Source: the human T2T-CHM13v2.0 reference genome, Homo sapiens. From it: DNA of 64,000 bases. The stretch lies in the NCBI RefSeq assembly GCF_009914755.1, contig NC_060935.1; one strand, 5' to 3'. This document shows, in pieces, positions 28,513-50,500 of this stretch (the first letter of the stretch is position 1; every line of letters begins with the position of its first letter). The translations under genes and the position numbers were made by a program. The notes beneath the pieces are model-generated. The model did no database searches. It had not been told where the DNA came from and worked only from the letters and a program-made list of their open reading frames with translations.

Positions 28513-29174
28513 ATATGTTTTGATGAAACCTAATAGATGGGCAGGTGTTGGAACACTCCTATGCAGAGTGTTACACACTTAGAGATGTATTAAATCATTG
28601 TAGCTTACTCTTTAACCCCTTAGTATTTAGCACAGTGCCTAGTAAGTAGAAGGTGCTGAATAAATGCTTACTGAATGAATGGACAAAGGAAAGAAAATAT
28701 AATTGAAATCCATACTTAATATTAAGTTAAATTGAAATGACACTTCACGGTTCTATTCAGCAACATGAAGGCTTTTATTCTAGAGTTTGTTTAGTCATCT
28801 TTCTGAGTATGTTTTAAAGTACTTAAGTGTATGAAAACACCCCTTTTATTTTGAAGGTTTCCAAGGTAGCTCTGCGTTTTTAGATGGTGGTTTTAAAATT
28901 TTAATTAATATTTATAGCTTCCTCTTGCTGCTTCCCCTATGAATAAAAATTATTCTTTGGGTAATGTCTCTGAAATTAATATTGACATTCAAACGATTCG
29001 GAAGTGATTTAATATTCTTGTTGCCTTCTCCTATGTTTCCTCCGGGACTATAGTTTCTCTGGGTTTCCCAGAGCCACCAGACAGGAAGCTTTTTCTATCA
29101 CGTTTTCTTATCTAATTTTAGAGAGACTAGTAGTTCTTCACTACCCTTTTAAAGTGCAGGGGGCAGTGATTTCT

Positions 29175-31689: not shown

Positions 31690-32800
31690 TGCCATCAGTG
31701 TCATCATCATCATCATATTAATAACATTTAGTTAGAACTTACTATGTTCCAGACACTGTACCAGGTGATTTACATTTATTATTTTAATTTTCTCAAAATT
31801 CTTAGGAGGTAGGTATCATCTTTACTTTAAACATGAGTCCATTACAAATTAGAGACATTAAATAACTTACTTAAGGCTACAGAGCTTGTTTTCTGGAATT
31901 CAACCCAAGTCTATACAACATCAGAGCCCAAGTGCTCAACAGTACCTAAAACGTCTTATAGATTCTAAGGATCTGTGGGTTTATGTCATCACAGATAGAG
32001 TTTATATCATCGTGAGTTATACTGACATCATAGATAGACTTGGCATTTGATCCATCTTTTAAAATATGACTTGATCATTCTCTCCCTTACAATCACTCAG
32101 AGGCTTTCCATTGCCTTTAAAAAAAAAATCCACATGACTATTATAGATAAGATGTTGTCTGACCTGGCCTCCACCCATCTCTCCAATCTCACTTCTCTAA
32201 CTCCACTCTTTTCTAACCCTCTGTTTGCATTTACTTCTGTCAGTTTCTCTTTACTTCTTGAGTTTGCAAATACTCTTTGCTATCTCTGGGATGCTCTTCT
32301 CTTCATCCTTGCCTGGCAAACTGTTGCTCAATCTCAATCCTCGGTCTAAAGGTCACTTCCTCAAAGATGTGTTCACTGATCTTTAATCCGAATTAATTTG
32401 TCCTTATTAGTTTCTCTAACAAAACTCAAAAGTATTTATCACAGATTTCAATTACACACTGATTTATGTATTTATTTATTAATATTTTTTGTCAGCCATC
32501 GCCCACTAGACTATAAATTCTATAAAAGAAAGGGCCGTGTTTAGCTTACTTAATACTGTATTCTCCAAGCCTAGCACCACAGCCTAGATGAGGGTGCAGC
32601 AACAGAGGGGCCTCATGTCAACAATGAGCAGACATTTACTATCGAGTTTGTACACAGCCTGACCCTGCGCTAACACTCCCCTAAAAGTGCATGTCTCTTT
32701 AAAATTTGTTCTGTAGACATCTTCCTTGGCTCACCCTAGTTGGAGCCTTGCCATATTAGAGATTTAATAATATTTCTTAAAGGAATGATTAAATGAGTGT
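31690..32800 (+). mobile_element. MIR (about 31690-31940) and L2 (about 32050-32800) remnants between the two OR genes
   Basis: TTACTATGTTCCAGACACTGT...GGAATTCAACCCAAGTCT (MIR); GGTCACTTCCTCAAAGATG...CCACTAGACTATAAATTC (L2 3' end). Confidence 0.6.
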
Positions 32801-34472: not shown

Positions 34473-36589
34473 CTCTGTAACTGGTCTATAGCTACCAATC
34501 ATCATTTAACCAATCGGTAAAATAATATTGAACACCCAACACTTCCTTACATTCTGAGAATATGTTGATCTATAGTTTGGTCTGCACGTGACTTACAAAG
34601 AGAGAAACAAATTACAATAGTAAGCAGCATGGCAATATTGAACATCAGTTATATATCTGAAAATTTACACGGTGCACAGTATCTCTTCTCCTAGCTACTC
34701 TTAAAACTATGTTTTACTATTTTCAAAGATAAGAAAAGGATGACGAAGGGAGTTTAAGTGACTCTTCTATGATCAGGTAGGAAACAGGTGGTAGAGGCAG
34801 GATTTCATACTGAGCTTCTGTGACTCCAGCACATGCTGCTGATACTGTTGAGCTCAGGCAGAGAACCGTGTGAGTAGTGTGGCTTTAGACGAGTCCAGAG
34901 GAGTAGAGGGGTCAGAGAAGACTTCACAGAACAAATGCACCATGAACAAATTTTACTGGTATTAAGAACTCTCATTTTAGTGTTTATGGTCCTTCTGTGT
35001 CCTGGCTTGACATAAAATAACAGAATTTAAAAATCTGGGCTCTCGGTATCCTCAGAGATTTAATTTTCATTAGTCAGCCATGAAGCCAAATAGGACCGGA
35101 TTGTGCAAAGCCCAGTCCTGTCATAAAGTGTTATTTTTCTTTTTTCCCCCAATCCAGACTCCTGTAGAATGCTAGAAATCCTTCTTCCTTGTGGAATGCT
35201 TACTAGCTTCTCTTACCTTCAGCTTGCTCAATATTCTAATAGTATAAAATGAGGAATAAGGGAGAATGGTCTCAAAGGAGATGGTATATATCAACTTGCC
35301 TTCTCAACTTTTGCCTTAATTTGGAGATATGTTCATCTTGTCCTTGGAGCTTTTGGAATCCTGTAAAATGTATCCACATGTTTTGAAGGACTGGATTTCA
35401 TTAGACAATTAGATATCTTGGGTTCTTTTTTTTTTTTTTAAACATCTAGCACCAAATACTCAGAATCACATAGATTTGGCCTAATCAGGGAAAATGGAAA
35501 ATGTTCTAAGACAAAAAGAATGAAAATGAGCATCAAGTTACATTGTTTAATTGACAAGGAATGAAGTGTTGAGAGTTTAGACAGTTTAACTGAGGAATAT
35601 CTATTACTTCAGACCAACAGTGTTAAAGACGAGGAGCACAGATATTTTCTCAATTCTGTCTGAAGCTACTTTAACAGATAGTATTGAACTGAGGCAAGAA
35701 ATCCAGGTTTGAAGGATATTTCTGTTCTGTTTACATCAATTTTGGAAAGAATAAGTCTGGGATTTAAGTAGCTAAGTAATAATAATGCTTCATTCTGCTA
35801 GTCTAGGGCTTGTGTCTCCAAAATCAAAGAAATACCATAATAAAACCCAGCAAAGGAGGCCAGAGCACTGTTTCAGGATAACATAATCATTTCAGATAAG
35901 GAAAACATGCTACTGTGGCTATTTCCAAAGCTTTGGTTAAATATTATTAAAAGTAACTTATAAAGTCCGTCAAACACACAAAATCAGTTTCTGGCTACTG
36001 TGATAAAATACATGCACTAAAGTCTGTTCTCTAGCCTCTCTTTGTCAACCTGAATAACTGCTTATCAGTTCTGGAGAGCCTCATCAGTTGGCTGGCTGTC
36101 TCTCAAAACGCCAGACCATAACACTATCATCCCTGTATACGCATGTTTACAATTTTGTCATTTTCAACCTCAAAATAATCTTAATGCTTTAAATCATTTG
36201 CTTAATGTCACACAGAAGTTGTTTGTACTATAGTTGGAAATGTTTTTTTGTTCCTATGTATTTTGCACTAAAAATACTGGTTAACAAGATGAGAATCAGT
36301 GAAGGGAATTAGAACTTTGAGGGACTCACATGCACACATTTTTCATTGACATAATGATCTAATTTACACAATTAGATAACTATTATTATTGTCCACTTTA
36401 TAATTGAGCAAACTAGAACAGTGTGGGAAAAAAATACCCACCCTCAAACACAAAGCTAAGATACACATCTAAACTTATCTGACTCTGGTGTGTGTCTATG
36501 GCACTAGTGGATAAGACCATGAAATTTGAACCTATCAAGGGAAAAAAAGGATGTGGATTTAGAATGCCATAATATAATGATGCTTCTAA

Positions 36590-36810
36590 TGATAACAGCT
36601 AGAACTTACTGAGTAGTTACTATATGCCAGAGACTTTGTATTTATTTCATTGTGAAATATCTCAGCAACTATACGTTATTATTCTCTCCATCATACAGGC
36701 AAGGTTTAGGGTTCGAGGGATTAAGGACCCACATTAGTGAGTAGTAGAGTTAGTGAATAAAATTTTGGCAGTCTGAATTCAGAGCCTGAATTATTAGCTG
36801 CTAAACCACA
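36590..36810 (+). mobile_element. MIR
   Basis: ACTTACTGAGTAGTTACTATATGCCAG...GCAGTCTGAATTCAGAGCC. Confidence 0.65.
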
Positions 36811-37203
36811 ATATCTTATGTATGAGAGTTTGTCATTATAAATTTGATTTGATATCAATTTCCACTTGTCATCTTACTTCATCTGTCAACTAATGATAGG
36901 AATTCTACATATAGAAATAAATTGTTATAGTTTAAAGATTTGATCCTGAAAAAATGAAAACATCCCCCAGGATATGTGTTAGGTTGAGTTTCATCCAAAA
37001 GTCTTTCAGCTCCTCCTCCAGAGCAGTGGACAGTAGAGGTTATCGTCCCAATCACCACTCCCTATTCCCAGAAGATGGACACACCCCACCCCCTTGAATA
37101 AGTTTTTGAAACTTGTTTCTTCTTGTCTTTCAAGTTCTATTTCAGGATGTGCTGCATTTATATCACATAGAAATGGAAGCATTTTACTTGGCAACAAAGA
37201 TGA

Positions 37204-37531
<328 letters not shown>

Positions 37532-38034
37532 CATACACTTTATTTCTAGCCACTAACTGCTTATAGATCTAGAAGCACACATAAATACATACTTATTTTA
37601 TCAGTCCCCAGTAAGTATTCCCTTATGGCATTACTACATTTTGCTTGTTATCCTGAATTTGATGGAATCATCAAAATCGTCCTATCTCCCTTTTGTAAGA
37701 TGGAACTTCCCTGCCAGGGCGTACCATACACCTGTGCTTATCAGACTCTTTCTCTAGCCCTTCATCCATCTGGACCATTTGCTTTTGTAAATTTCTCCTT
37801 GGCTGACTGATATTTGCTAATGTGTGTATTTAGTCTGCCTAACCTTGTTACCTCTCAGTTTGCAGTCCTTTCATGCCTTCCTTGGCCAAATCCTTCCCAT
37901 TTTATTGACAACACTATTGCTTACTTTTCTTCCCTTTCTGCTCTGTAGATGTACTCTGGGAATCTTGAAGTTTGAATGGATTTTACACCGTATTAATCAA
38001 GGGTGACTTTAGATTTATTGGATTTTTCCTAAGA

Positions 38035-38202
38035 GTATGGAAAACTTGCACTGGAATCACCTGGTCTGTTTCTTAAAAATGCCGATTTCTAGGTTCTACC
38101 TATAAAATTGCAATTATTCTCTGGGTTTAGGGCTCAGGAATATAAATTTATATCAATTTGTATGGGTTATTCTTATTCAATCAAAAGTTGGAGAAATACT
38201 GG
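38035..38202. mobile_element. MER5-like hAT DNA transposon
   Basis: GAATCACCTGG...TTAAAAATGCCGATTTCTAGG...AAAGTTGGAGAAATACTG. Confidence 0.65.
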
Positions 38203-38666
38203 CTTTTGGGAGAAGGAAAAGTGTTGAGCAGGTTTGAGTATTATTAGGGTAAAGGACTGAAGTGTAAGGGAGGGGAAGGTTGAAGGTCAGATCTAGAAGG
38301 GCCTGCATATGGGAGGCCGAGTTTTCTAAACTAAAAGCATCACCAACTTTTTAATGTGGTGATAGAACTAACTATGCGGATGACCCAGAGCAGCAATAAA
38401 TCTAGCTTTCTGAATTCTCACAACATGTGTGGATGGCTGTTGCAGCCTCTAATATGTCCACAGGCATGCAGAGGCTATTTTTTTTTTTCAGGTGTGGGCT
38501 AGCAAAGTATTCTCACAAGGGTGAGACTGCACACTTGTTGTGTGCTGGATAATCTACCAGGTACAGGAGGTACCTAGCAGAATGAGCTGAATAAACTACT
38601 GAGGAGCTCATAGTATATAAGGGTTGGATACATGTAAATGATAAATTCCATTATAACTCAAATTCC

Positions 38667-39424
38667 ATGAGCCTTTAAACTCATCAGGTCAAAATCGGTT
38701 TTTAACTTAGCAAATAGCATGCTCTGTTCTTGCCATCTTCAAAGCAGCATATACTTATGTAATAACTATGAATATATTTTGAACAGTAGTTTGATAATCC
38801 TTATATTCTTATTTTCTTTATTTCCTCTTATTTTCAATTTATTTCTATATGTAGAATTCCTATCATTAGTTGACAGATGAAGTAAGATGACAAGTGGAAA
38901 TTAATATCAAATTTATATTAATAAATATAATCTTTATATTCTTATTTGCACATATGTGCAAATTGTACACCCAGGTGATCAATGGAGATTAGAAAAATAT
39001 TTGAATCTTACTCATCATTAAGTAGGACAAATAAAAAATTATCTTCTCATTTATATATATGTCAATTAAATCCATGACAAAAGTAAAATCACAGTTTCAT
39101 GGGGGAAGAGAAAAGGAAGGTAAAATTTTGTTTGGGGACAGCATGGGACATTTCAAAAGTTTAGTAACATTTAACTGGATGTTTATAGAATAAGTTTTTT
39201 TCCAGACCAAGCAGACACGTGAGTCTTTTAGGTTTAGAGTAGCCAAATACTAACATTTTGAGTTTTTTAAATAGGAGAATAAGGTTATGAAGATTATCAA
39301 ACTACTGTTCAAAATATACTCATAGTTATTACATAAGTGCTTCCTGCTTTGAAGATAGCAAGAACAGAGCATGCTATTTGCTAAGTTAAAAAACTATTTC
39401 GAACTGATGAGTTTAAAGGCTCAT
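38667..39424. repeat. Inverted repeat, 133-bp arms (38667-38799 and 39292-39424), about 92% identical
   Basis: Manual alignment: 123/133 identical without gaps; weaker similarity extends about 24 bp further inward. Confidence 0.92.
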
Positions 39425-40707
39425 TAGAACATGGGCTGAGTTGGCTTTTGAGACAGACAAAAATATAAGGTCTACCTTTGAATCTTTCTCATCTCTGGTA
39501 GTAGTATCATAATATTCTTGCTTTTTAGTAATTACCAAATAATCTTATTAATGTAATTTAAAAAGGTGTGTGAATATTTCCAGGTGTTTGCTTTTTATGT
39601 AGAAATACTTTGTGTTGAAGGCTTTAGATAAAATGGCTAACATTGTAATTGCAGAATAAAAAAATTTCTCTGAAATTGTCTATTTTGGGCAGGGTACAAT
39701 GTCTTGTGATCTCTCAAATGTAATAGGTTACCAATTGCTCCTCTGTATGTAAAACCTTATCTTTCCATGAAACTTCAGTGAGTACTTTAAAGATAAACTT
39801 TCCAAAAGCTGGAAGCTTCTTAACTCAGTCCCTAGTGAAAAAGAAAGTTGTTAGGGTCATTTTCTGGATACTCAAAATATGCAAATCAGAGCTTCTCATA
39901 ATGCAGTGCTGTACTTTATGGGCTCAAGTGTTGGTTTATCTGTGCAGAACTCAATAGCTGAGGATATAAATGAAGAGCTGTCATTCCTATCTTCCATCAG
40001 TAAATAGAAATTGTATAGCTGTGTACAATAAAATGTATCATAGTTTTAGTACTCTAAATCTTTATGCCTTAAATTACTTATAAACAAAACTCCTTGATTC
40101 CAATGAGTCCAGTTTTAAGTCAAGAATAAAAATAAATTTTGGATATATGAAGTTGCCTGACATAGGAGGTGATATAAGTTATCTCCTTTACCTGTTCCAA
40201 TACTGCATTTCTTAGGCTTCTTCCCCTGGCCAGTTTGAGGAATGTGCACTCAAAAGTTCTATCAGGATCCTGTTTATGTTCAATGGAGCACACAGAAGGC
40301 TTCTTGAATCTGCAGTTCTTTATGCTTCAAGTAATACCAAGCAAAACTCCTTCTCAGTGTTGAAAGAGAAGTTACTATAAATTTGCATGATTATTTCTTT
40401 GTACCTCCAATCAATTAAAATTTACTTTAACTTGCTTTGAATGGAAATCTCAAAAGGGAATAACTTTGACCAAAGTTCTCTAAAAGTAAACTAATGTAAT
40501 TAGTCCTTCAAGGCTTTAGGGGGTGAGACGTTTGAGATTTGTCATAGAGTATGAACTGTACTTCTTCAAAAAAAGATAGAGCTACTTCTTGGGTACAGAA
40601 GTAGTAGAAAACTTGTTACTGTATTTGAACTTTAAGAAATTCTCTTAAGCTAGGTAGTGACTCAGTGAGGCCTTGGGTATCTTGACGATGTAATGAAATT
40701 ATAACAA

Positions 40708-40856
40708 ATATATCCATATATATTTATCCATATATATATATGGATATATATTTATCCGTATATATATCCATATATATTTATCCATATATATATGGATATA
40801 TATTTATCCGTATATATATCCATATATATATGGATATATTTGAATATATATATATG
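40708..40856. repeat. AT-rich compound minisatellite with internal palindromes
   Basis: ~52-bp unit repeated about 2.5 times, built from ATCCATATATA / TATATGGAT blocks. Confidence 0.9.
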
Positions 40857-42639
40857 ATCAGTGTTAATTTGAAAATCCAATCTTTTTTTTTTTCAATGAG
40901 CATTGAACATTGAGTCACATACTAATTATGGTATATAATACTTGGCATGAACTTGGGTAAGTTACTTAAATTCCTAGCTTCAGTTTCTTCATCTGTAAAA
41001 TGGGTTTCATAGGATCTTTAAGAGAAATAATTGTGTATAATTTGCACCCAGGTGATCAACGGAGATGAGAAAAAATATTTGAATCTTGCTCATTATCAAG
41101 AAGTTCAAATAAAAATTATCTTCTCATTTATATACATTCAATAAGCTCAAAGTATCTACTTATCAAATTATCTGCGTACTTCACCCCTTTCCCACCAAAA
41201 TGTTGAACTTGTAGTTCATCAAAACCATACTGTAAACTGTTATGAGTTTACCTTTCTAGACGTGGTTATATTGAAATATTTTGCATGCACTGAAGTGTAA
41301 AATGAATGAAAAATGTTGGATTAAAAGAGATTCAATAAAAATCTAAAGAATATTTAAAAGCTTTATTAATGATTGTCTAACCTTGATTGGAATTTTAAAA
41401 TGTGAAGTTATGTCAAAATGTGTAGTAGGGATTTTTATTTGCACTAAATTATGTTTTTTTCTCCTTCCCTAGAAGCCATTTTATGCTACTCTTAGGACAT
41501 CATATGCTAAAGATATTATGGCTTAAAATAGATAATGGACAATGTTACACTGATGAGAATTATCTGTGTAAAGAAAGTTTTCAGTCATTCTAGGATTTCC
41601 AAACCTTGTCTTCTTAAATATGATAGAATGGTAAGTTCAATAAAAACTATCCATGTTCTGTGGGGAAAGGGGGTCAGTGAAGAGCCAGCCTTGCTGTCCT
41701 TTTCAGGAATTAGATAAAGTGTGCCTTAAGAGTGTCAAATACAGGTCTGGGCACTATGGGCACACTATTTCCACCTTTATTCTACCTTTCCTGCTGGGTC
41801 AACTTGCTACAGAACTGGGAGTCAATCCTGGAGTTCTAGTCTAAAACTCACTTCCTAAGCACACCTGGTGATTTTGTAAGCACTTAATTCTCTATTCTTT
41901 CTTGCTTAAAATAGCTAAAATCATTTCCGTTTCCTTCACTGAAGCTTAAATAATATAAATGCCAATGAGGAGGGACTTCTGTGAACTATGACAATAATCA
42001 TCTTATCCAGAGGATATTTTGGTGTCCTACTTGTTCTGAAAGCTTCCCCTATAGAACAGCCAAGAAACAAGAAATGAGTTCAAAATAGAGTGCTCATTAA
42101 CACATCTAATGATATCTACATTCATCTTGAGAAATAATGCCCCTATGTGACAATACTTCATCTTAGGAAAAAAAAAAAAAGGATATCAATCTGAGAGGGG
42201 TTTGGTATCATTGTTATTTTTTAAAAAGTGGATTTTTAAAAATTTTCTTTAAACATTTTTTACATGCCTACTTAATATGGTTAATCCATATGAATGGGTT
42301 AGGAAAAACTGAAATGTCTACTGATTAACTGAGTTACCTCAAAAACTAAACTGCAGCATTAAATTATTCTAAGATGTTACCCAAATCGAGAATATGTGTT
42401 GAATTACATAAAGTATGTAGCATTCCAGATCCTTTTCTTGAATCTCTTCTCCTAAACAAGATAACTTATTGGCTGTTTAAATGCTCTTGTGGAATGTTTC
42501 TTATCATTTCCTTTTTGCCATCAAAATATACCTTTATTTGTTACATGAGTAACATAAACATTAAAAAATAGTGTATTATTGATTTTGCCACAACACTCCC
42601 AGAACTATTAGCAACTTAAAAAAAGTTAGAAGTGACGAA

Positions 42640-45600
42640 TAAGAGCATTACATATTGATATAGGGGTCAATTCAATAAGAAGAGCTAACTATCCTAAATA
42701 TATATGCACCCAATACAGGAGCACCTATATTCAAAAAACATGTTTTTAGAGACCTAAAAAGAGACTTAGACTCTCACACAATAAAAGTGGGAGACTTTAA
42801 CGCCATACTGTCAATATTAGACAGATCATTGAGACAGAAAATTAACAAAGACCTTCAGACCTTGAACTCAACTCTGGATCAAGTGGACCTGATATATATC
42901 TACAGATCTTTCCACCCCAAAACAACATAATACACATTCTTCTTGGCACCACGTGGCACTTACTCTAAAACTGATTACACAATTGGAAGAAAATCACTCC
43001 TCAGCAAATGCAAAAAAAAAAAAAAAAAAACCCTGAAATCATAACAAACTGTCTCTCAGACCACAGCACAATCAAATTAGAACTCAAGAGTAAGAATCTC
43101 ACTCAAAACCACACAACTTCATGGAAACTGAACAACCTGCTCCTCAATGATTCCTGGGTAAATAATGAAGTTAAGGCAGAAATTAAGAAGCTCTTTGAAA
43201 CCAATGAAAACAAAGAGACAACGTGCCAGAATCTCTGGGATGCAGGTAAAGCAGTGTTAAGAGATAAATTTATAGCACTCAACGTCCATATCAAAAAGCT
43301 AGAAAAATCTTGAATCAGCACCCTACCATCACAACTAAAATAATTAGCGACCCCAAAGCAAACAAACCCCAAAGCTAGTAGAAAACGAGGAATAACCAAG
43401 ATCAGAGTGGAACTGAAGGAGATAGAAATATGAATAACCTTTCAAAAAAAATCAATGAATCCAGAAACTGTTTCTTGGAAAAAAAAATAATAAAATAGAC
43501 CACTAGCTAGTCTAATAAATAAGAAAAGAGGGAAGAATCAAATAGACCACAATAAAAAAATGATAAAGGAGATATCACCACTGACCTCACAGAAATACAA
43601 ACTACCACGAGAGAATACTACAAACACCTCTATGCACATAAACTAGAAAATCAGGAGAAATGGATAAATTTCTGGACACATACACCCTCCCAAGACTGAA
43701 ACAGGAAGAAGCTGAATCCCTGAATAGACAAATAAGTTACAAAATTGAGGCAGTAATAAATAGCCTACCAACCAAAAAAAGCCCAGGACCAGATGGATTT
43801 ACAGCTGAATTCTACCAGAAATACAAAGAAGAACTGATATCGTTTCTTCTAAAACTATTCCAAACAATTGAAAAGGAGAGACTCCTCCCTCACTCATTTT
43901 ATGAGGCCAGCATTATCCTGATACCACAACCTGACAGAGATAAAACCAAAAAATAAAATTTCAGGCCAATATCCCTGATGAACATTGATGCAAAAATTCT
44001 CAATAAAATTCTGGCAAACTGAATCCAGCAGCACATCAAAAAGCTTATCCATCATGATCAAGTTGGCTTCATTCCCAGGATGCAAGGCTGGTTCAACATA
44101 TGCAAATCAATAATTTATCACCTAAACAGATCTGAAGACAAAAACCACATGATTATCTCAATAGATGCAGAAAAAGCCTTCGATAAAATTCAACAATGCT
44201 TCATGTTAAAAACTCTCAATACACCAGGTACTGAAGGAACATACTTCAAAATAATAAGAGCCATTTATGACAAACCTACAGCCAATATCATATTGAATGG
44301 GCAAAAGCTGGAAGCATTCCCTTTGAAAACTGGCACAAGACAAGGATGCCCTCTCTCACCACTCTTATTCAACATAGTATTGGAAGTTCCAGCCAAGGCA
44401 ATCAGGCAAGAGAAAGAACTACAGGGTATTCAAATAGGAAGGGAGGAAGTCAAAATACCTCTGTTTGTAAATGACACGATCCTATATATAGAAAATCCCA
44501 TTATCGCATCCCAAAAGCTCTTAAGCTCATAAGCAACTTCAGCAAAGTCTCAGGATATAAAACCAATGTGCAAAAATCACAAGCATTCCTATACACCAAC
44601 AACAGGCAAGCAGAGAGCCAAATCATGAATGAACTCCCATTCACAATTGCTACAAAGATAATAAAATACCTAGGAATACAGTTAACAAGGGAAGTGGAGG
44701 ACCTTTTCAAGGAGAATTATAAACCACTGCTCAAGGAAACTAGAGAGGACACAAACAAATGAAAAAATATTCCATGCTCACGGACAGGAAGAATCAATAT
44801 TGTGACAATCACCACACTGCCCAAAGTAATTTATAGATTCAATGCCATTCTCATTAAACTACCACTGACATTCTTCACAGAATTAGAAAAAACTGTTTTA
44901 CAATTCATAATACAGAACTCAGATATAAGATCACATATCTACAATCATCTGATCTTCAACAAACCTGACAAAAACAAGCAATGGGGAAAGGATTCCCTAT
45001 TTAATAAATAGTGCTGGGAGAACTGGCTATCCATTTGCAGAAAATTGAAACTGGACACCTTCCTCACATGTTATACGAAAATTAACTCAAGATAGATTAA
45101 CGACTTAAATGTAAAACCCCGAACTATAAAAAACCTAGAAGAAAATCTAGGCAATACCATTCAGGACATAGGCATGAGAAAAGATTTAATGATAAAGTTG
45201 CCAAAAACAATTGTAATGAAAGCAAAAATTGACAAACGGGATCTTATTAAACTAAAGAGCTTCTGCACAGCATAAGAAACTAGCATCAGAGTGAACAGGC
45301 AACCTATAGAGTGAGAGAAGTTTTTTGCAATCTATTCATCTGACAAATGCCTAATATCCAGAATTTACAAGAAACTCAAACCAATTTACCAAGAAAGAAA
45401 CAAACAACCCCATTAAAAAGTGGATAAAGAACATGAACAGACACTTCTCAAAAGAAGATATTCATACAGCCAACAAACATATGAAAAAAAGCTCAACATC
45501 ACTGATCGTTAGAAAAATGCAAATAAAAACTACAATGAGATACCATCTCATGCCAATCAGAATGGCCATTATTAAAAAGTCAGGAAACAACAGATGCTGG

Positions 45601-46286
45601 TGAGGTTGTGAAGAAATAGGAACAGTTTTACACTGTTGGTGGGAATGAAAATTAGTTCAACAATTTTGGAAGATGTGTGGTGATTCCTCAAGGATGTAGA
45701 ACCAGAAATACCATTTGACCCAGCAATCCCATTACAGGGTGTATACCCAAAGGAATATAAATCATTCTATTACCAAGATACATGCACAGCTATATTCATT
45801 GCAATACTATTCACAATAGCAAGGACAGGGAATCAACCCAAATGCTCATCAATGATAGACTGGATAAAGAAAATGAGGTGCATATACAACGTATACAACA
45901 TGGAATACCATGAGGCCACCAAAAGGAATGAGATCATATCCTTCGCAGGAACATGGAGGAAGCTGGAAACCATTATCCTCAGAAAACTAATGCAGGAACA
46001 GTAAACCAAAACCCGCATTTCTTACTTGTAAGTGGGAGCTGATCAATGAGATTACATGGACACAGGGGAGGAACAACACACACTGGGGCCTGTCAGGGGG
46101 TTGGGTGGGAGGAAGGGGAGCATTAGGAAAAATAGCTAATGCATGCAGGGCTTAATACCTAGGTGATGGGTTGATAGGTGCAGCAAGCCATATGGCACAC
46201 GTTTACCTATGTAACAAACCTGCACATCCCACACATGTACCCCAGAACTAAAAATAAAAATTAAAATTACAAAAAAGAAAAAAAAA
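42640..46286 (+). mobile_element. 5'-truncated L1PA (PA8-13-like) with poly-A tail
   Basis: ORF2 fragments 43008..43313, 43660..43956 and 44080..44532 (RT: [17 protein letters not shown]); 3' end GCTTAATACCTAGGTGATGGGTTGATAGGTGCAGC; degenerate TSD AAAAAA(A/T)GTTAG(A/T)AGT; ~160-bp internal deletion near 44909. Confidence 0.92.
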
Positions 46287-47532: not shown

Positions 47533-50500
47533 TATGATATCATCCCTTTTTAATGGCTGTGTAATATTCCATGGTGTATACATACCACATTTTCTTTATC
47601 CAGTCCACCACTGATATGTTTAAATTGATTCCATGTTTTTGCTATTGTTAATAGTGATGCAAGGAACATACATATGCCTGTGTCTTTATGATAGAACAAT
47701 TTATCTTCCTTTGAATATACACCCATAATGGGATTTCTGGGTTGAATGGTAGTTCCATTTTAAGTTTGTTGAGAAATCACCAAACTGCTTTCTATAATGG
47801 CTGAACTAATTGGCATTCCCACCAGCAGTGTATAAGTATTCCCTTTTCTCCACAACTTCACCAGCATCTGTCATTTTTTGACTTTTTAATAGTAGCCATT
47901 CTGACTGGTGTGAGATTGTATCTCATTGTGATTTTGATTTGCATTTCTCTAATGATTAGTGATATTGAACACTTTTTTCATATGCTTGTTGGCAGCTTAT
48001 ATGTCTTCTTTTGAAAAGTGTCTGTTCATGTCCTTTGCCCACTTTTTATGGGGTTGTTTTTTTGGTTTTAAATTTGTTTAAGTTAGTTATGGCTTCTGGA
48101 TATTAGACCGTTGTCAGATGCATAGGTTGCAAATATTTTCTTCCATTCTGTGGGTTGTCTGTTTACTCTATTGATAGTGTCTTTGCTGTGAAGAAGCTCT
48201 TTAGTTTAATTAGGTCTAATTTGTCAGTTTTTTTTTTGTTGTTGTTGCAATTGCTTTTTGTGTCTTCGTCATGAAATCTTTTGCCAGGGCCAATGTTCAA
48301 AATGCTATATCCTAGGTTTCCTTTAAGGGTTCTTATAGTTTTAGGTTTAACATTTAAGTCTTTAATTCATCTTGAGTTGATTTTTGTATATGGTGTAAGT
48401 AAGTGGTCCGGTTTTAATCTTCTGCATATGGCTAGCCAGTTATCCCAGCACCATTTATTGAATAGGGTGTCTTTCCCCCATTGCTTGTTTTTATCATCTT
48501 TTTTTTTTTTTGAAGATCAGAATGTTGTAGTCATGTGGCTTTATTTTTGTGTTCTCTATTATGTTCCATTGGGCTATGTGTCTGTTTTTGTACCATGCTG
48601 TTTTTGTTACTGTAGTCTTGTGGTATAGTTTGAAGTCAGCTTTATTCTCTTTGAATTGATATGGCTATTCAGGCTCTTTTTTGGTTTCATGTGCATTTTA
48701 AAATAATATTTTTCCTAATTTTGTAAAGAATGTCATTGGTGGTTTGATAGGAATAGCATTGAATTTGTACAATGCTTTGGGTAGTATGGCCATTTTAGCA
48801 ATATTGGTTCTTCTTATCTATGAGTATGGAATGTTTTCCATTTGTTTGTGTTATCTCTGATTTTTTCTTCAGTGTTTTGTAGTTCTACTTGTATAGATCT
48901 TTCACCTCTATGGTTAGTTGTATTCATAGTTATTTCATTTTCTTGGTGGCTATTGAAAGTGGGATTGTGGTATTGGTTTATGCTTATCCTGAATGTTGTG
49001 TATAGGAATGTTACTGATACTTGTACATTGATTTTGTATACTGACTTTACTGAAGTCATTTATGACTTCTGACAAAGTGTTTAGGATTTTCTAGGTATAG
49101 AATCATATTGTCAATGAAGAGAGAGAGTTTGACTTCTTCTTTTTCTATTTGGATGCCTTTAATTTCTTTCTCTTGGCTGATTGCTCTGGCAAGGGCTTCT
49201 AGTACTATATCAAATAGGGGTGATGAGAATGGGCATCCTTGTGTTGTTCCAGTTCTCAAGAAGATGCTTCCAACTTTTGCCCATTCAGTATGATGTTAGC
49301 TGTGGATTTGTTGTAGATGGCTTTTATTATTTTGAGGTATGTTCCTTTGATGCCTTGCTTGTTGAGGGTTTTTTAATATGAAGGGATATTGAATTTTATT
49401 GAACGACTTTTCTGCATCTATTGAGATAATCATTTGGTTTTTTGTCTTTAGCTCTGTTTATGTGATGAAACACAGTTATTGATTTGGGTATGTTGAACCA
49501 ACTTATCAGCTCAGGAATACAGCCTACTTGACAGTGTTGGGTTAGGTTTTTGCTATGCTGCTGGATTCAGTTTGCTAGTATTTTGTTGAGGGTTTTCCCA
49601 TTGATGTTCATCAGAGAAAATTGCCTGAAGTTTTCTTTTCTTGTTGTCTCTGCTAGGTTTTGTTATCAGAATGATGTTGGCCTCATAGAATGAGTTAGAA
49701 AGGAATCCCTCCTCAATATTTTGGAATAGTTTCAGGAGGATTGGTACAAGCTTTTTTTAATACATCTGGTAGAATTCAGCTGTGAATCTGTTTGGTCCTG
49801 GCTTTTCCCAGTTGGTGGGCTTTTTATTACTGATTCAATTTTGGAACTCATTATTGGTCTGTTCAGAGTTTTAATTTCTTTCTGGTTCAATCTTGGAAGA
49901 TTGTATGTTTCTAGAAATTTATCCTTTTCTTTTAGATATTCTAGTTTCTGTGCATATAGATATTTGTAATACTCTGAAGGTTTTTAAAAAATATTTCCAT
50001 GGGGTCAGTAGTAATATGCCCTTTTAAATTTCTGTTTGTGTTTACTTGGGTATTGTCTCTTTTTTTTTCTTTATTGGGCTAGCTAGCAACCTGTCAATCT
50101 TATGGATTCTTTCAAAAACCAACTTTTTGATTCATTGATTTTTATGTTTTTTTCACATCTCAATATCATTCAGTTCAGTTCTAATTTTGATTATTTCTTT
50201 TCTTCTTCTAGCTTCAGGATTGTTTTTGCTCTTGTTTTCCTAGTTCCTCTTGATGTGATATCAGGTTGTTAATTTGAGACCTAACTTCCTGATGTGAGTG
50301 TTAAGCACACTCAACTTGCCTCAGTGCTGCTTTAGCTGTGTCACAGAGATATTGGTATGTTGCATGTTTGTTTTTCTTAGTTTCAAATTATTTATTTATT
50401 TCTGCCGTAATTTCATTGTTTATCCAGAAGACATTTAGGAGTAGGTTATTTAATTTCCATGTAATTGTATGGTTTTTAGAAATCTTCTGAGTCTTATATC

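What the first reader, a model, noticed from the sequence alone, without database searches (positions are those of the whole stretch)
38643..39078. ~400-bp patchwork insertion stitched from three neighbouring donor segments
Seen directly, in order. (A) 38667-38799 is an inverted copy of 39292-39424 (123/133). (B) 38835-38912 is an inverted copy of 36847-36924 (77/78). 38927-38947 re-copies the end of A (38794-38814, 20/21). A perfect 20-bp palindrome ATTTGCACATATGTGCAAAT lies at 38944-38963. (C) 38968-39066 is a direct copy of 41045-41142 (~88%). The block is bracketed by TAAATTCCAT and TAAATCCAT and appears to interrupt an L2-like remnant, so it is likely the derived copy. Inference: a germline chained template-switch event (FoSTeS/MMBIR or polymerase-theta synthesis-dependent end joining) that sampled DNA within about 2 kb on both sides and both strands. 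It lies about 4 kb upstream of OR6T1, so it may have duplicated cis-elements.
Basis: partly seen in the sequence, partly recalled or inferred. Interest (0 to 1): 0.8.

Follow-up and report, generated by a model that had tools for sequence, protein, structure and literature searches.

The report
Nested patchwork insertion copied from neighbouring DNA
A roughly 400-base stretch of human intergenic DNA near an olfactory receptor gene is stitched together from copies of three sequences lying within about 2 kb, most likely scars of two separate faulty DNA copying or repair episodes; it is a clear example of a known kind of mutation.

Summary
In the whole T2T genome each block segment has only one partner, its neighbour. 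The flanks are single-copy at the tool's sensitivity.

The reading "patchwork of local templated copies" holds. The reading "one chained event" probably does not.
- Segments A and C differ from their partners by 10-13%, but B by 1 of 78 bases (Fisher p = 0.0056).
- B sits inside the A-C junction, bracketed by a 21-base direct repeat. The whole block is bracketed by an 11-base direct repeat.
- I therefore read it as an old two-template insertion (A + C, with a fold-back palindrome at their joint). A much younger B insertion followed, at the edge of that palindrome.

Copied tracts of 78-157 bases, from templates 0.2-2 kb away, fit replicative template switching (FoSTeS/MMBIR-like) better than polymerase-theta end joining. 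An L1-type, RNA-mediated origin of B remains a minor rival.

The L2-remnant claim has only weak support. The OR6T1 cis-element idea is untested. No primate genomes were available, so direction and dates are inferred. This is a known kind of event, of modest interest.

The parts
38660..38670 (+). Left copy of the outer flanking direct repeat (AAATTCCATGA). Its last four bases (ATGA) are shared with the start of segment A and with the partner of A, giving a 4-base microhomology at the first junction.
   Evidence: junction strings; null 1.6% of 5000 random pairs.
38667..38823 (+). Segment A: inverted copy of 39269-39424. The last roughly 10 bases (38814-38823) are T-rich, and their homology is doubtful.
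   Evidence: (I1), 3, 4 and 5: 140 of 157 columns, 16 mismatches, 1 gap.
38794..38814 (+). First copy of the 21-base direct repeat that brackets the B insert (the end of segment A).
   Evidence: D7, 20 of 21; null 0.3% of 5000.
38815..38834 (+). T-rich filler (14 T of 20) holding a 10-base re-copy of 38807-38816 at 38826-38835. I read it as stutter synthesis; under the L1 rival it would be the complement of an A-rich tail.
38835..38917 (+). Segment B: inverted copy of 36837-36924. The core 38835-38912 matches 77 of 78. One 5-base slip extends it to 38917, 82 of 83 aligned bases.
   Evidence: (I2).
38918..38926 (+). Nine-base AT filler between B and the second 21-base repeat. No template was identified.
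38927..38947 (+). Second copy of the 21-base direct repeat.
   Evidence: D7.
38944..38963 (.). Perfect 20-base palindrome at the A-C joint. Its left arm matches the partner of C directly (38942-38951 versus 41038-41047, 9 of 10). Its right arm is part of an inverted copy of the same partner bases.
38956..38970 (+). 15-mer that matches the reverse complement of 41033-41047 at 14 of 15, but matches it directly at only 10 of 15. The head of C was copied in both orientations (fold-back).
38971..39066 (+). Body of segment C: direct copy of 41048-41142. The whole C alignment is 38955-39066 versus 41032-41142.
   Evidence: (D3-D5).
39068..39077 (+). Right copy of the outer flanking direct repeat (AAATCCATGA; one T shorter).
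39269..39424 (-). Partner (inferred template) of A, 191-346 bases to the right of the insertion point.
36837..36924 (-). Partner (inferred template) of B, about 1.9 kb to the left. An AATAAA hexamer lies at 36916-36921, 3 bases before the homology ends.
41032..41142 (+). Partner (inferred template) of C, about 2 kb to the right. It starts 4 bases after the detectable end of a dispersed-repeat copy at 40945-41028.

Best explanation
The stretch from about 38671 to 39067 is a derived insertion built only from copies of nearby DNA. It was made in two nested episodes of local DNA-templated synthesis, that is, template switching of a 3' end at a stalled fork or a broken end (FoSTeS/MMBIR-like).

Episode 1 (old; about 12% pairwise divergence). 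A growing 3' end at ...AAATTCCATGA left its template.
1. It re-primed through the 4-base ATGA match on the opposite strand 346 bases ahead and copied back about 150 bases. This is segment A.
2. It moved to a template 2 kb ahead. There it copied the first bases in both orientations, which made the 20-base perfect palindrome, and then copied about 95 bases forward. This is segment C.
3. It returned to its own template 11 bases behind the point of departure, leaving the outer direct repeat.

The result was a 150-base inverted repeat plus a perfect palindrome.

Episode 2 (young; about 1% divergence). At the edge of that palindrome a second switch copied 83 bases from the opposite strand 1.9 kb behind (segment B), with short stutter fillers. 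It returned 21 bases behind its departure point, leaving the 21-base direct repeat.

Shown: the copies, their uniqueness, their unequal divergence, the nesting, the flanking repeats and the both-orientation copy at the palindrome.

Inferred: which copy is derived, the order of the switches, the replicative nature of the process and the ages.
For: - Three segments in a row each have exactly one other match in 3.1 Gb, all within 2.3 kb and on both strands. No other local duplication exists in 30-48 kb, apart from an Alu dimer and one 78% inverted pair.
- The flanks are single-copy.
- Direct repeats bracket the block (11 bases; 1.6% of 5000 random pairs do as well) and bracket B (21 bases; 0.3%).
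- None of the three partner segments has such a bracket (read).
- One sink with three sources is simpler than one source with three sinks that copied adjoining, non-overlapping parts.
- Divergence: A 16 of 156, C 14 of 110 (A versus C p = 0.56), B 1 of 78. B versus A+C gives Fisher p = 0.0056. The binomial P(at most 1 of 78 at the A+C rate) is 0.001.
- A and its partner are longer and closer together than B and its partner, yet 10% apart. Gene conversion is therefore a poor explanation for the purity of B.
- The 15-mer at the head of C matches its partner inverted at 14 of 15, against 10 of 15 directly. The direct copy of the same bases lies 4 bases to its left.
- A 10-base stutter sits in the filler.
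- The region can fold strongly as single-stranded DNA (-161.6 kcal/mol, z = -15.6 against 20 shuffles). This fits a structure-prone site.
Against: - No outgroup or population data could be consulted, so direction and timing rest on parsimony, flanking repeats and divergence.
- The case for two events rests on one contrast (1 of 78 against 30 of 266).
- If the four clustered mismatches in A count as one event, the contrast weakens (my estimate, not computed).
- Microhomology is clear only at the first junction (4 bases). It is 5 of 6 at the A-to-C switch. The other junctions are blurred by age or by fillers.
- The A homology may run 9 bases past the first 21-mer (13 of 16 with a gap, read). That would make the second 21-mer a re-copy rather than a flank duplication.
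- Support from an interrupted older repeat is weak. Joining the flanks in a script raised the profile score from 2.3 to 5.7 bits, 3.5% of 400 random right flanks did as well, and shifts of up to 20 bases scored about the same.
- Templates here lie 0.2-2 kb away, whereas the published germline set was searched only within 100 bp.
Confidence: 0.6

Rival explanations
1. One chained template-switch event. A, B, the 21-base re-copy, the palindrome and C were all laid down in a single repair or replication accident. The near-identity of B to its partner is then later gene conversion, constraint or luck.
For: - All pieces are contiguous, and one outer direct repeat brackets the whole block.
- Chains of up to five templates are known in germline events (PMC8421209).
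- The 21-mer pair (1 difference in 21) cannot distinguish the ages.
- A's homology may run on beyond the first 21-mer.
Against: - B at 1 of 78 against A+C at 30 of 266: Fisher p = 0.0056, binomial 0.001.
- Gene conversion should homogenise the longer, closer A pair before the 78-base B pair 1.9 kb away. The A pair is nevertheless 10% diverged.
Confidence: 0.2
2. The young B insert was made by L1 endonuclease and reverse transcriptase (target-primed reverse transcription of a short local transcript, like class 1 templated sequence insertions). Only A + C would then be a DNA-templated patchwork.
For: - On the minus strand the order is 21-base repeat, 9 extra bases, B in the sense of its source, a 20-base A-rich stretch (14 A), then the 21-base repeat. 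This is the TSD-insert-tail-TSD layout.
- The plus-strand nick site would read ...TTATTT/GCAC, close to the T-rich L1 target.
- The source homology ends 3 bases after an AATAAA hexamer.
- The defining features are taken from the abstract of PMC5110952.
Against: - The tail has 6 non-A bases of 20, although the insert differs from its source at 1 of 78. It also contains a re-copy of the flank.
- Polyadenylation is expected 10-30 bases after the signal, not 3.
- L1-mediated insertions land without regard to the source. A source 1.9 kb away is about a 1-in-a-million coincidence (my estimate: 4 kb in 3.1 Gb).
- The same spot already holds two other local copies.
Confidence: 0.08
3. The block is the original sequence and the three partner segments are the derived copies. 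Alternatively, the pattern is what remains of a larger inverted duplication after deletions.
For: No outgroup was available to polarise the copies. In an inverted copy of 36.8-39.4 kb, A would precede B as observed.
Against: - It needs three separate insertions that each took an adjoining, non-overlapping piece of one 400-base source.
- C is in the opposite orientation to A and B, so one duplication cannot give all three.
- Direct repeats bracket the block and B, not the partners (read by eye).
Confidence: 0.04
4. The A arms are terminal inverted repeats of a non-autonomous DNA transposon, or the segments belong to a dispersed repeat family.
For: There are 150-base inverted arms 458 bases apart. 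The genome search tool misses very old families: a degenerate old repeat at 36570-36830 found only itself.
Against: - There are no other copies of the block or of 39067-39900 anywhere in the genome, even at E up to 10.
- The arms are 90% alike, so a family of that age would be found. The tool did find the 85% C pair.
- Profiles of two old families gave no significant match inside the block. The best was a match to the second profile at 38671-38732, E = 0.54.
Confidence: 0.03

Closest known systems
Complex MMBIR/FoSTeS-type templated insertions in the human germline (MMB-TI 'complex' class; PMC8421209, passages read)
   Same: The insert is made only of copies of nearby sequence, from several templates and in both orientations. 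It returns to the original template and causes no gross rearrangement. It persists as an inherited variant.
   Different: Tracts are 78-157 bases, and templates lie 0.2-2 kb away, whereas that study's search was set to templates within 100 bp. Here two episodes are nested at one spot. Microhomology is readable at only some junctions.
Polymerase-theta end-joining templated insertions (TINS; PMC7165422 passages; PMC4490562 passages)
   Same: AT-rich inserts: the block is 74% A+T against 65% for the window. There are direct and inverted copies of flanking DNA, and stutter from aborted rounds of synthesis. The 10-base re-copy and the short fillers look like this.
   Different: Reported inserts are 3-30 bp, with primary tracts rarely above 10 bp, and they are copied from DNA right at the break. 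The main tracts here are 78-157 bases, from up to 2 kb away.
Short-range template switches that invert quasi-palindromes in place (PMC5453318 and PMC7954356; only the search listing and abstract starts were seen)
   Same: The 15-mer at the head of C is an inverted copy of a quasi-palindromic partner stretch (14 of 15 inverted, 10 of 15 direct). This produced a perfect hairpin-forming palindrome.
   Different: Those events are single, replace sequence in place, and span tens of bases. Here the inversion is one link in a longer insertion chain.
Templated sequence insertion polymorphisms (TSIPs; PMC5110952, abstract)
   Same: Short patches copied from elsewhere in the genome and inserted. Class 1 carries target-site duplications, as B does.
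   Different: TSIP sources are distant and RNA-derived. Here all sources lie within 2.3 kb, no clean poly(A) tail is present, and the A+C patch is a two-orientation chimera.

Membership tests
Complex replicative templated insertion (FoSTeS/MMBIR-like) | The inserted sequence is a copy of nearby genomic sequence | tested here: met
   three pairs, each the only match in the genome.
Complex replicative templated insertion (FoSTeS/MMBIR-like) | Two or more templates joined in one insert, with direct and inverted orientations | tested here: met
   A inverted and C direct, with equal divergence (p = 0.56). The head of C is copied in both orientations.
Complex replicative templated insertion (FoSTeS/MMBIR-like) | Microhomology at the switch points | tested here: inconclusive
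   Four bases (ATGA) at the site-to-A junction; 5 of 6 at A-to-C; 6 bases (TTTATA, TTATTT) are available at the B junctions, but fillers intervene.
Complex replicative templated insertion (FoSTeS/MMBIR-like) | The insert is the derived state relative to an empty ancestral site | not testable with these tools
   No primate or population assemblies were on hand. The only indirect support is the flanking direct repeats and a weak continuity of an old repeat across the site (3.5% of 400 controls).
Complex replicative templated insertion (FoSTeS/MMBIR-like) | Template within 100 bp (operational rule of the published germline search) | tested here: not met
   Templates lie 191-346, about 1900 and about 1950-2060 bases away (coordinates).
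Polymerase-theta (TMEJ) templated insertion | Insert of 3-30 bp, with primary tracts rarely over 10 bp, copied from DNA next to the break | tested here: not met
   Tracts are 157, 83 and 112 bases. Only the fillers (20 and 9 bases, with a 10-base re-copy) fit.
L1-mediated insertion (class 1 TSIP / retrocopy) | Target-site duplication | tested here: met
   A 21-base repeat brackets B, and an 11-base repeat brackets the block.
L1-mediated insertion (class 1 TSIP / retrocopy) | Poly(A) tail 10-30 bases downstream of a polyadenylation signal | tested here: not met
   The tail-side filler is 14 of 20 A on the minus strand and holds a re-copy of the flank. Source homology ends 3 bases after AATAAA. 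There is no A- or T-run at either end of the whole block.
L1-mediated insertion (class 1 TSIP / retrocopy) | Insertion at a TTTT/A-like site | tested here: inconclusive
   The plus strand reads TTATTT/GCAC at the B site.
DNA transposon / MITE or other dispersed repeat | Multiple related copies in the genome | tested here: not met
   no copy other than the local partners. Caveat: the tool misses very old families.

The most novel reading that the evidence does not exclude
Templated patchworks can seed themselves. The first insertion built a 150-base inverted repeat and a perfect 20-base palindrome. That structure later stalled or broke replication at its own edge and drew in a second local templated insertion tens of millions of years afterwards. 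On this reading the locus is a naturally dated, two-generation example of structure-induced recurrent template switching in the primate germline.
Probability: 0.3. Interest if true: 0.5.

Novelty: new member of a known kind. Interest (0 to 1): 0.3.

Why it matters
It is a clean example, resolvable to the base, of a germline complex templated insertion. The tracts (about 80-160 bases) and template distances (0.2-2 kb) fall between the short scars catalogued by read-based searches and the kilobase-to-megabase FoSTeS/MMBIR rearrangements of genomic disorders.

If the two-step reading holds, it also shows one such scar creating the secondary structure that provoked the next. That can be tested directly on primate T2T assemblies.

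It has no shown functional consequence. Nothing here links it to regulation of OR6T1.

Tried and rejected
1. Naming old repeats around the partners in order to polarise the copies.
- Single-sequence nhmmer and Smith-Waterman comparisons between suspected old repeat copies were not significant (z = 0.8, 0.0, 2.3).
- A whole-genome search with 36570-36830 found only itself. The genome tool therefore cannot see very old families.
- A first profile iterated on fetched loci became contaminated by Alu and was dropped.
- A cleaner profile from 70 genomic copies sharing a 16-mer of the window placed a copy of that family at 40945-41028 (E = 1.4e-12). The 16-mer has 4117 exact genome matches, against 0 for the reversed control.
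- That copy ends 4 bases before the partner of C. Only weak pieces were found at 36597-36636 and 36715-36787, and nothing in the block or around the partner of A. No direction can be drawn from this.
- I recognise this family as MIR, and the second profile's family as the L2 3' end, from memory only.

2. The L2-remnant claim.
- I built a profile from 50 of the 51 genomic copies of a recalled 19-base motif.
- It gave no hit at the block flanks in a whole-window search at E up to 10.
- In a small targeted search it gave a weak left-flank hit at 38527-38620 (E = 0.017, 2.3 bits).
- It gave a modest gain when the flanks were joined in a script (5.7 bits; 3.5% of 400 random joins did as well; not specific to the exact joint).
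- The join was one base off. One search used the correct join.

3. Rfam: no family in 36000-42000.

4. L1-type origin, DNA-transposon origin and reversed direction were considered and ranked low (see the rival explanations).

Full report
**What is there**

Reading 38500-39500 and searching 36000-42000 for repeats reproduces every element of the finding.
- Segment A, 38667-38823, is the reverse complement of 39424-39269: 140 of 157 columns, 16 mismatches, 1 gap.
- Segment B, 38835-38912, is the reverse complement of 36924-36847 at 77 of 78. With one 5-base slip in a tandem motif the match runs on to 38917, 82 of 83 aligned bases.
- Segment C, 38955-39066, is a direct copy of 41032-41142: 96 of 113 columns, 14 mismatches, 3 gap columns.
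- The 21-mer 38794-38814 recurs at 38927-38947, 20 of 21.
- 38944-38963 is a perfect 20-base palindrome. It is the only one of that length in the window outside a TA-rich array at 40.7 kb. Of 20 shuffled windows, 2 produced one anywhere.

**Is it a dispersed repeat?**

A search of the whole 3.1-Gb assembly with the block returned four places: the block itself and the three neighbours (E = 5e-50, 8e-30, 8e-24).
- The left flank 38100-38666 matched only itself.
- 39067-39900 matched only itself and segment A.
- A self-comparison of 30-48 kb shows no other local duplication, except the two halves of an Alu and a 441-base inverted pair at 78% near 45.5/47.6 kb.
- The genome tool has a limit. A stretch I take to be a degenerate old SINE (36570-36830) also found only itself, so 'unique' means no copy above roughly 80-85% identity.
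- That is enough for the question asked. Each pair is far closer to its neighbour than to anything else in the genome, so these are local copies whatever older repeats underlie them.

**Which copy is derived?**

No outgroup genome could be consulted, so the direction is inferred from three things.
- Parsimony. One place that received three adjoining pieces is simpler than one source whose adjoining, non-overlapping parts were each copied to a different nearby site.
- The block is bracketed by a direct repeat, AAATTCCATGA at 38660-38670 and AAATCCATGA at 39068-39077. Repeats that good occur at 1.6% of 5000 random position pairs. I saw no such brackets around the partner segments (read by eye).
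- An attempt to use older repeats as a ruler gave only weak support.
  - A profile built from 50 of the 51 genomic copies carrying a recalled 19-base motif matched the left flank weakly (38527-38620, E = 0.017 in a 271-base search, 2.3 bits). I recognise this family as the L2 3' end from memory only.
  - When the two flanks were joined in a script, the match ran through the joint at 5.7 bits. However, 3.5% of 400 random right-hand pieces did as well, and shifting the joint by up to 20 bases made little difference.
- A second profile, from 70 copies sharing a 16-mer of the window (4117 exact genome matches, 0 for the reversed control), puts a copy of that family at 40945-41028 (E = 1.4e-12). 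It ends 4 bases before the partner of C begins. The profile finds nothing significant in the block or around the partner of A. I recognise this family as MIR from memory. This does not polarise the copies.

**One event or two?**

If one accident made the whole block, all pieces should be equally diverged from their templates. They are not.
- A differs at 16 of 156 aligned bases and C at 14 of 110 (A versus C, p = 0.56). B differs at 1 of 78.
- B against A+C gives Fisher p = 0.0056. The chance of at most one difference in 78 at the A+C rate is 0.001.
- Gene conversion is a poor rescue. The A pair is longer and much closer together than the B pair, yet it remains 10% diverged.
- The anatomy fits nesting. 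B, with a 20-base T-rich filler on its left and a 9-base filler on its right, lies between the two copies of the 21-mer. Flanking repeats that good occur in 0.3% of 5000 random pairs.
- Removing 38815-38947 would leave the end of A abutting the palindrome and C.
- Jukes-Cantor distances are 0.12 for A+C (95% interval 0.08-0.18) and 0.013 for B (0.0003-0.07).
- Set against primate divergences that I recall rather than computed (human-chimpanzee about 1.2%, human-macaque about 6-7%, human-marmoset above 10%), the old event is roughly as old as the anthropoid radiation and the young one is of ape age. The errors are wide.
- One caveat: A's homology may run 9 bases past the first 21-mer (13 of 16 with a gap in a T-rich stretch). 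In that case the second 21-mer is a re-copy rather than a flank duplication. The insert would still be a local patchwork.

**The joint between A and C**

The palindrome is not a random filler.
- Bases 38942-38951 match the partner of C directly (41038-41047, 9 of 10).
- Four bases later, 38956-38970 match the reverse complement of 41033-41047 at 14 of 15, against 10 of 15 in direct orientation. The direct copy then continues from 41048.
- The first bases of this template were therefore copied in both orientations. That is what a fold-back or a brief switch to the opposite strand at a quasi-palindrome would give.
- In the B filler, 38826-38835 repeats 38807-38816 exactly, a stutter of the kind left by aborted rounds of synthesis.

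**Mechanism**

The first junction shows a 4-base microhomology: ATGA is shared by the target and the template of A. The A-to-C switch has 5 of 6. The others are obscured by age or fillers.
- Copied tracts are 157, 83 and 112 bases. Templates lie 191-346 bases ahead on the opposite strand, about 1.9 kb behind on the opposite strand, and about 2 kb ahead on the same strand.
- Polymerase-theta templated insertions are reported as 3-30 bp, with primary tracts rarely over 10 bp, copied from DNA at the break (PMC7165422, passages; see also PMC4490562, passages). That fits the fillers but not the main tracts.
- Germline 'complex' MMBIR-type insertions from up to five templates are documented in humans, although that search was limited to templates within 100 bp (PMC8421209, passages).
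- I therefore favour template switching of a 3' end at a stalled, uncoupled fork or during break-induced synthesis. In each episode the end returned to the original template a little behind the point of departure, which leaves the 11- and 21-base flank duplications. This step is inferred.
- The product of the first episode folds strongly as single-stranded DNA (-161.6 kcal/mol, z = -15.6). The second insertion sits exactly at the edge of the palindrome. This suggests, but does not show, that the first scar provoked the second.

**A rival for the young insert**

Read on the minus strand, B has the layout of an L1-mediated insertion: 21-base repeat, 9 extra bases, B in the sense of its source, a 20-base A-rich stretch, then the 21-base repeat. 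The presumed nick site is T-rich, and an AATAAA lies 3 bases before the end of the source homology (features from the abstract of PMC5110952).
- Against it, the 'tail' has 6 non-A bases of 20 in an insert that is otherwise 99% identical to its source, and it contains a re-copy of the flank.
- The distance from signal to tail is 3 bases rather than 10-30.
- A retro-insertion landing 1.9 kb from its source would be a very rare coincidence, at a spot that already holds two other local copies.
- I give this rival about 8%.

**Comparison and verdict**

This is a member of a known class, the complex germline templated insertion. It is of an intermediate size class and probably built in two nested steps.
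- No known RNA family lies in 36-42 kb.
- Nothing was tested that bears on OR6T1, whose start codon lies 4.2 kb away.
Novelty is low to moderate.
- The decisive test is the alignment of primate orthologues and pangenome haplotypes, which could not be run here.

Noticed in passing
window 40680-40865: TA-rich tandem and palindromic array with units of about 12-14 bases. It holds three perfect palindromes of 20-26 bases and lies about 170 bases upstream of the partner of C. It could itself be a fragile, hairpin-forming site.
   Followed up: no
window 45469-45907 and 47565-47993: A 441-column inverted pair at 78% identity. These are probably two copies of an interspersed repeat in opposite orientation. 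The family was not identified.
   Followed up: no
window 40945-41028: A copy of a very abundant old interspersed repeat: its 16-base core has 4117 exact matches in the genome, and the profile E-value is 1.4e-12. From memory it is a MIR element. It ends 4 bases before the partner of C starts.
   Followed up: partly
window 36597-36636 and 36715-36787 (minus strand): Two weak, colinear matches to the same old-repeat profile (E = 0.017 and 0.78 in a small search). This suggests a decayed copy just left of the partner of B.
   Followed up: partly
window 32352-32580 and 28604-28689 (minus strand): The best window matches to the second old-repeat profile, which from memory is the L2 3' end (E = 1.5e-08 and 2.3e-08).
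   Followed up: no
window 38771-38776 versus 39315-39320: Within A, four of the 16 mismatches cluster in six bases. This looks like a multinucleotide change rather than independent substitutions.
   Followed up: no
tool behaviour: The own-genome DNA search returns nothing for decayed ancient repeats that an exact-core pattern search shows to be present in thousands of copies. 'No match' from it bounds only copies above roughly 80-85% identity.
   Followed up: yes
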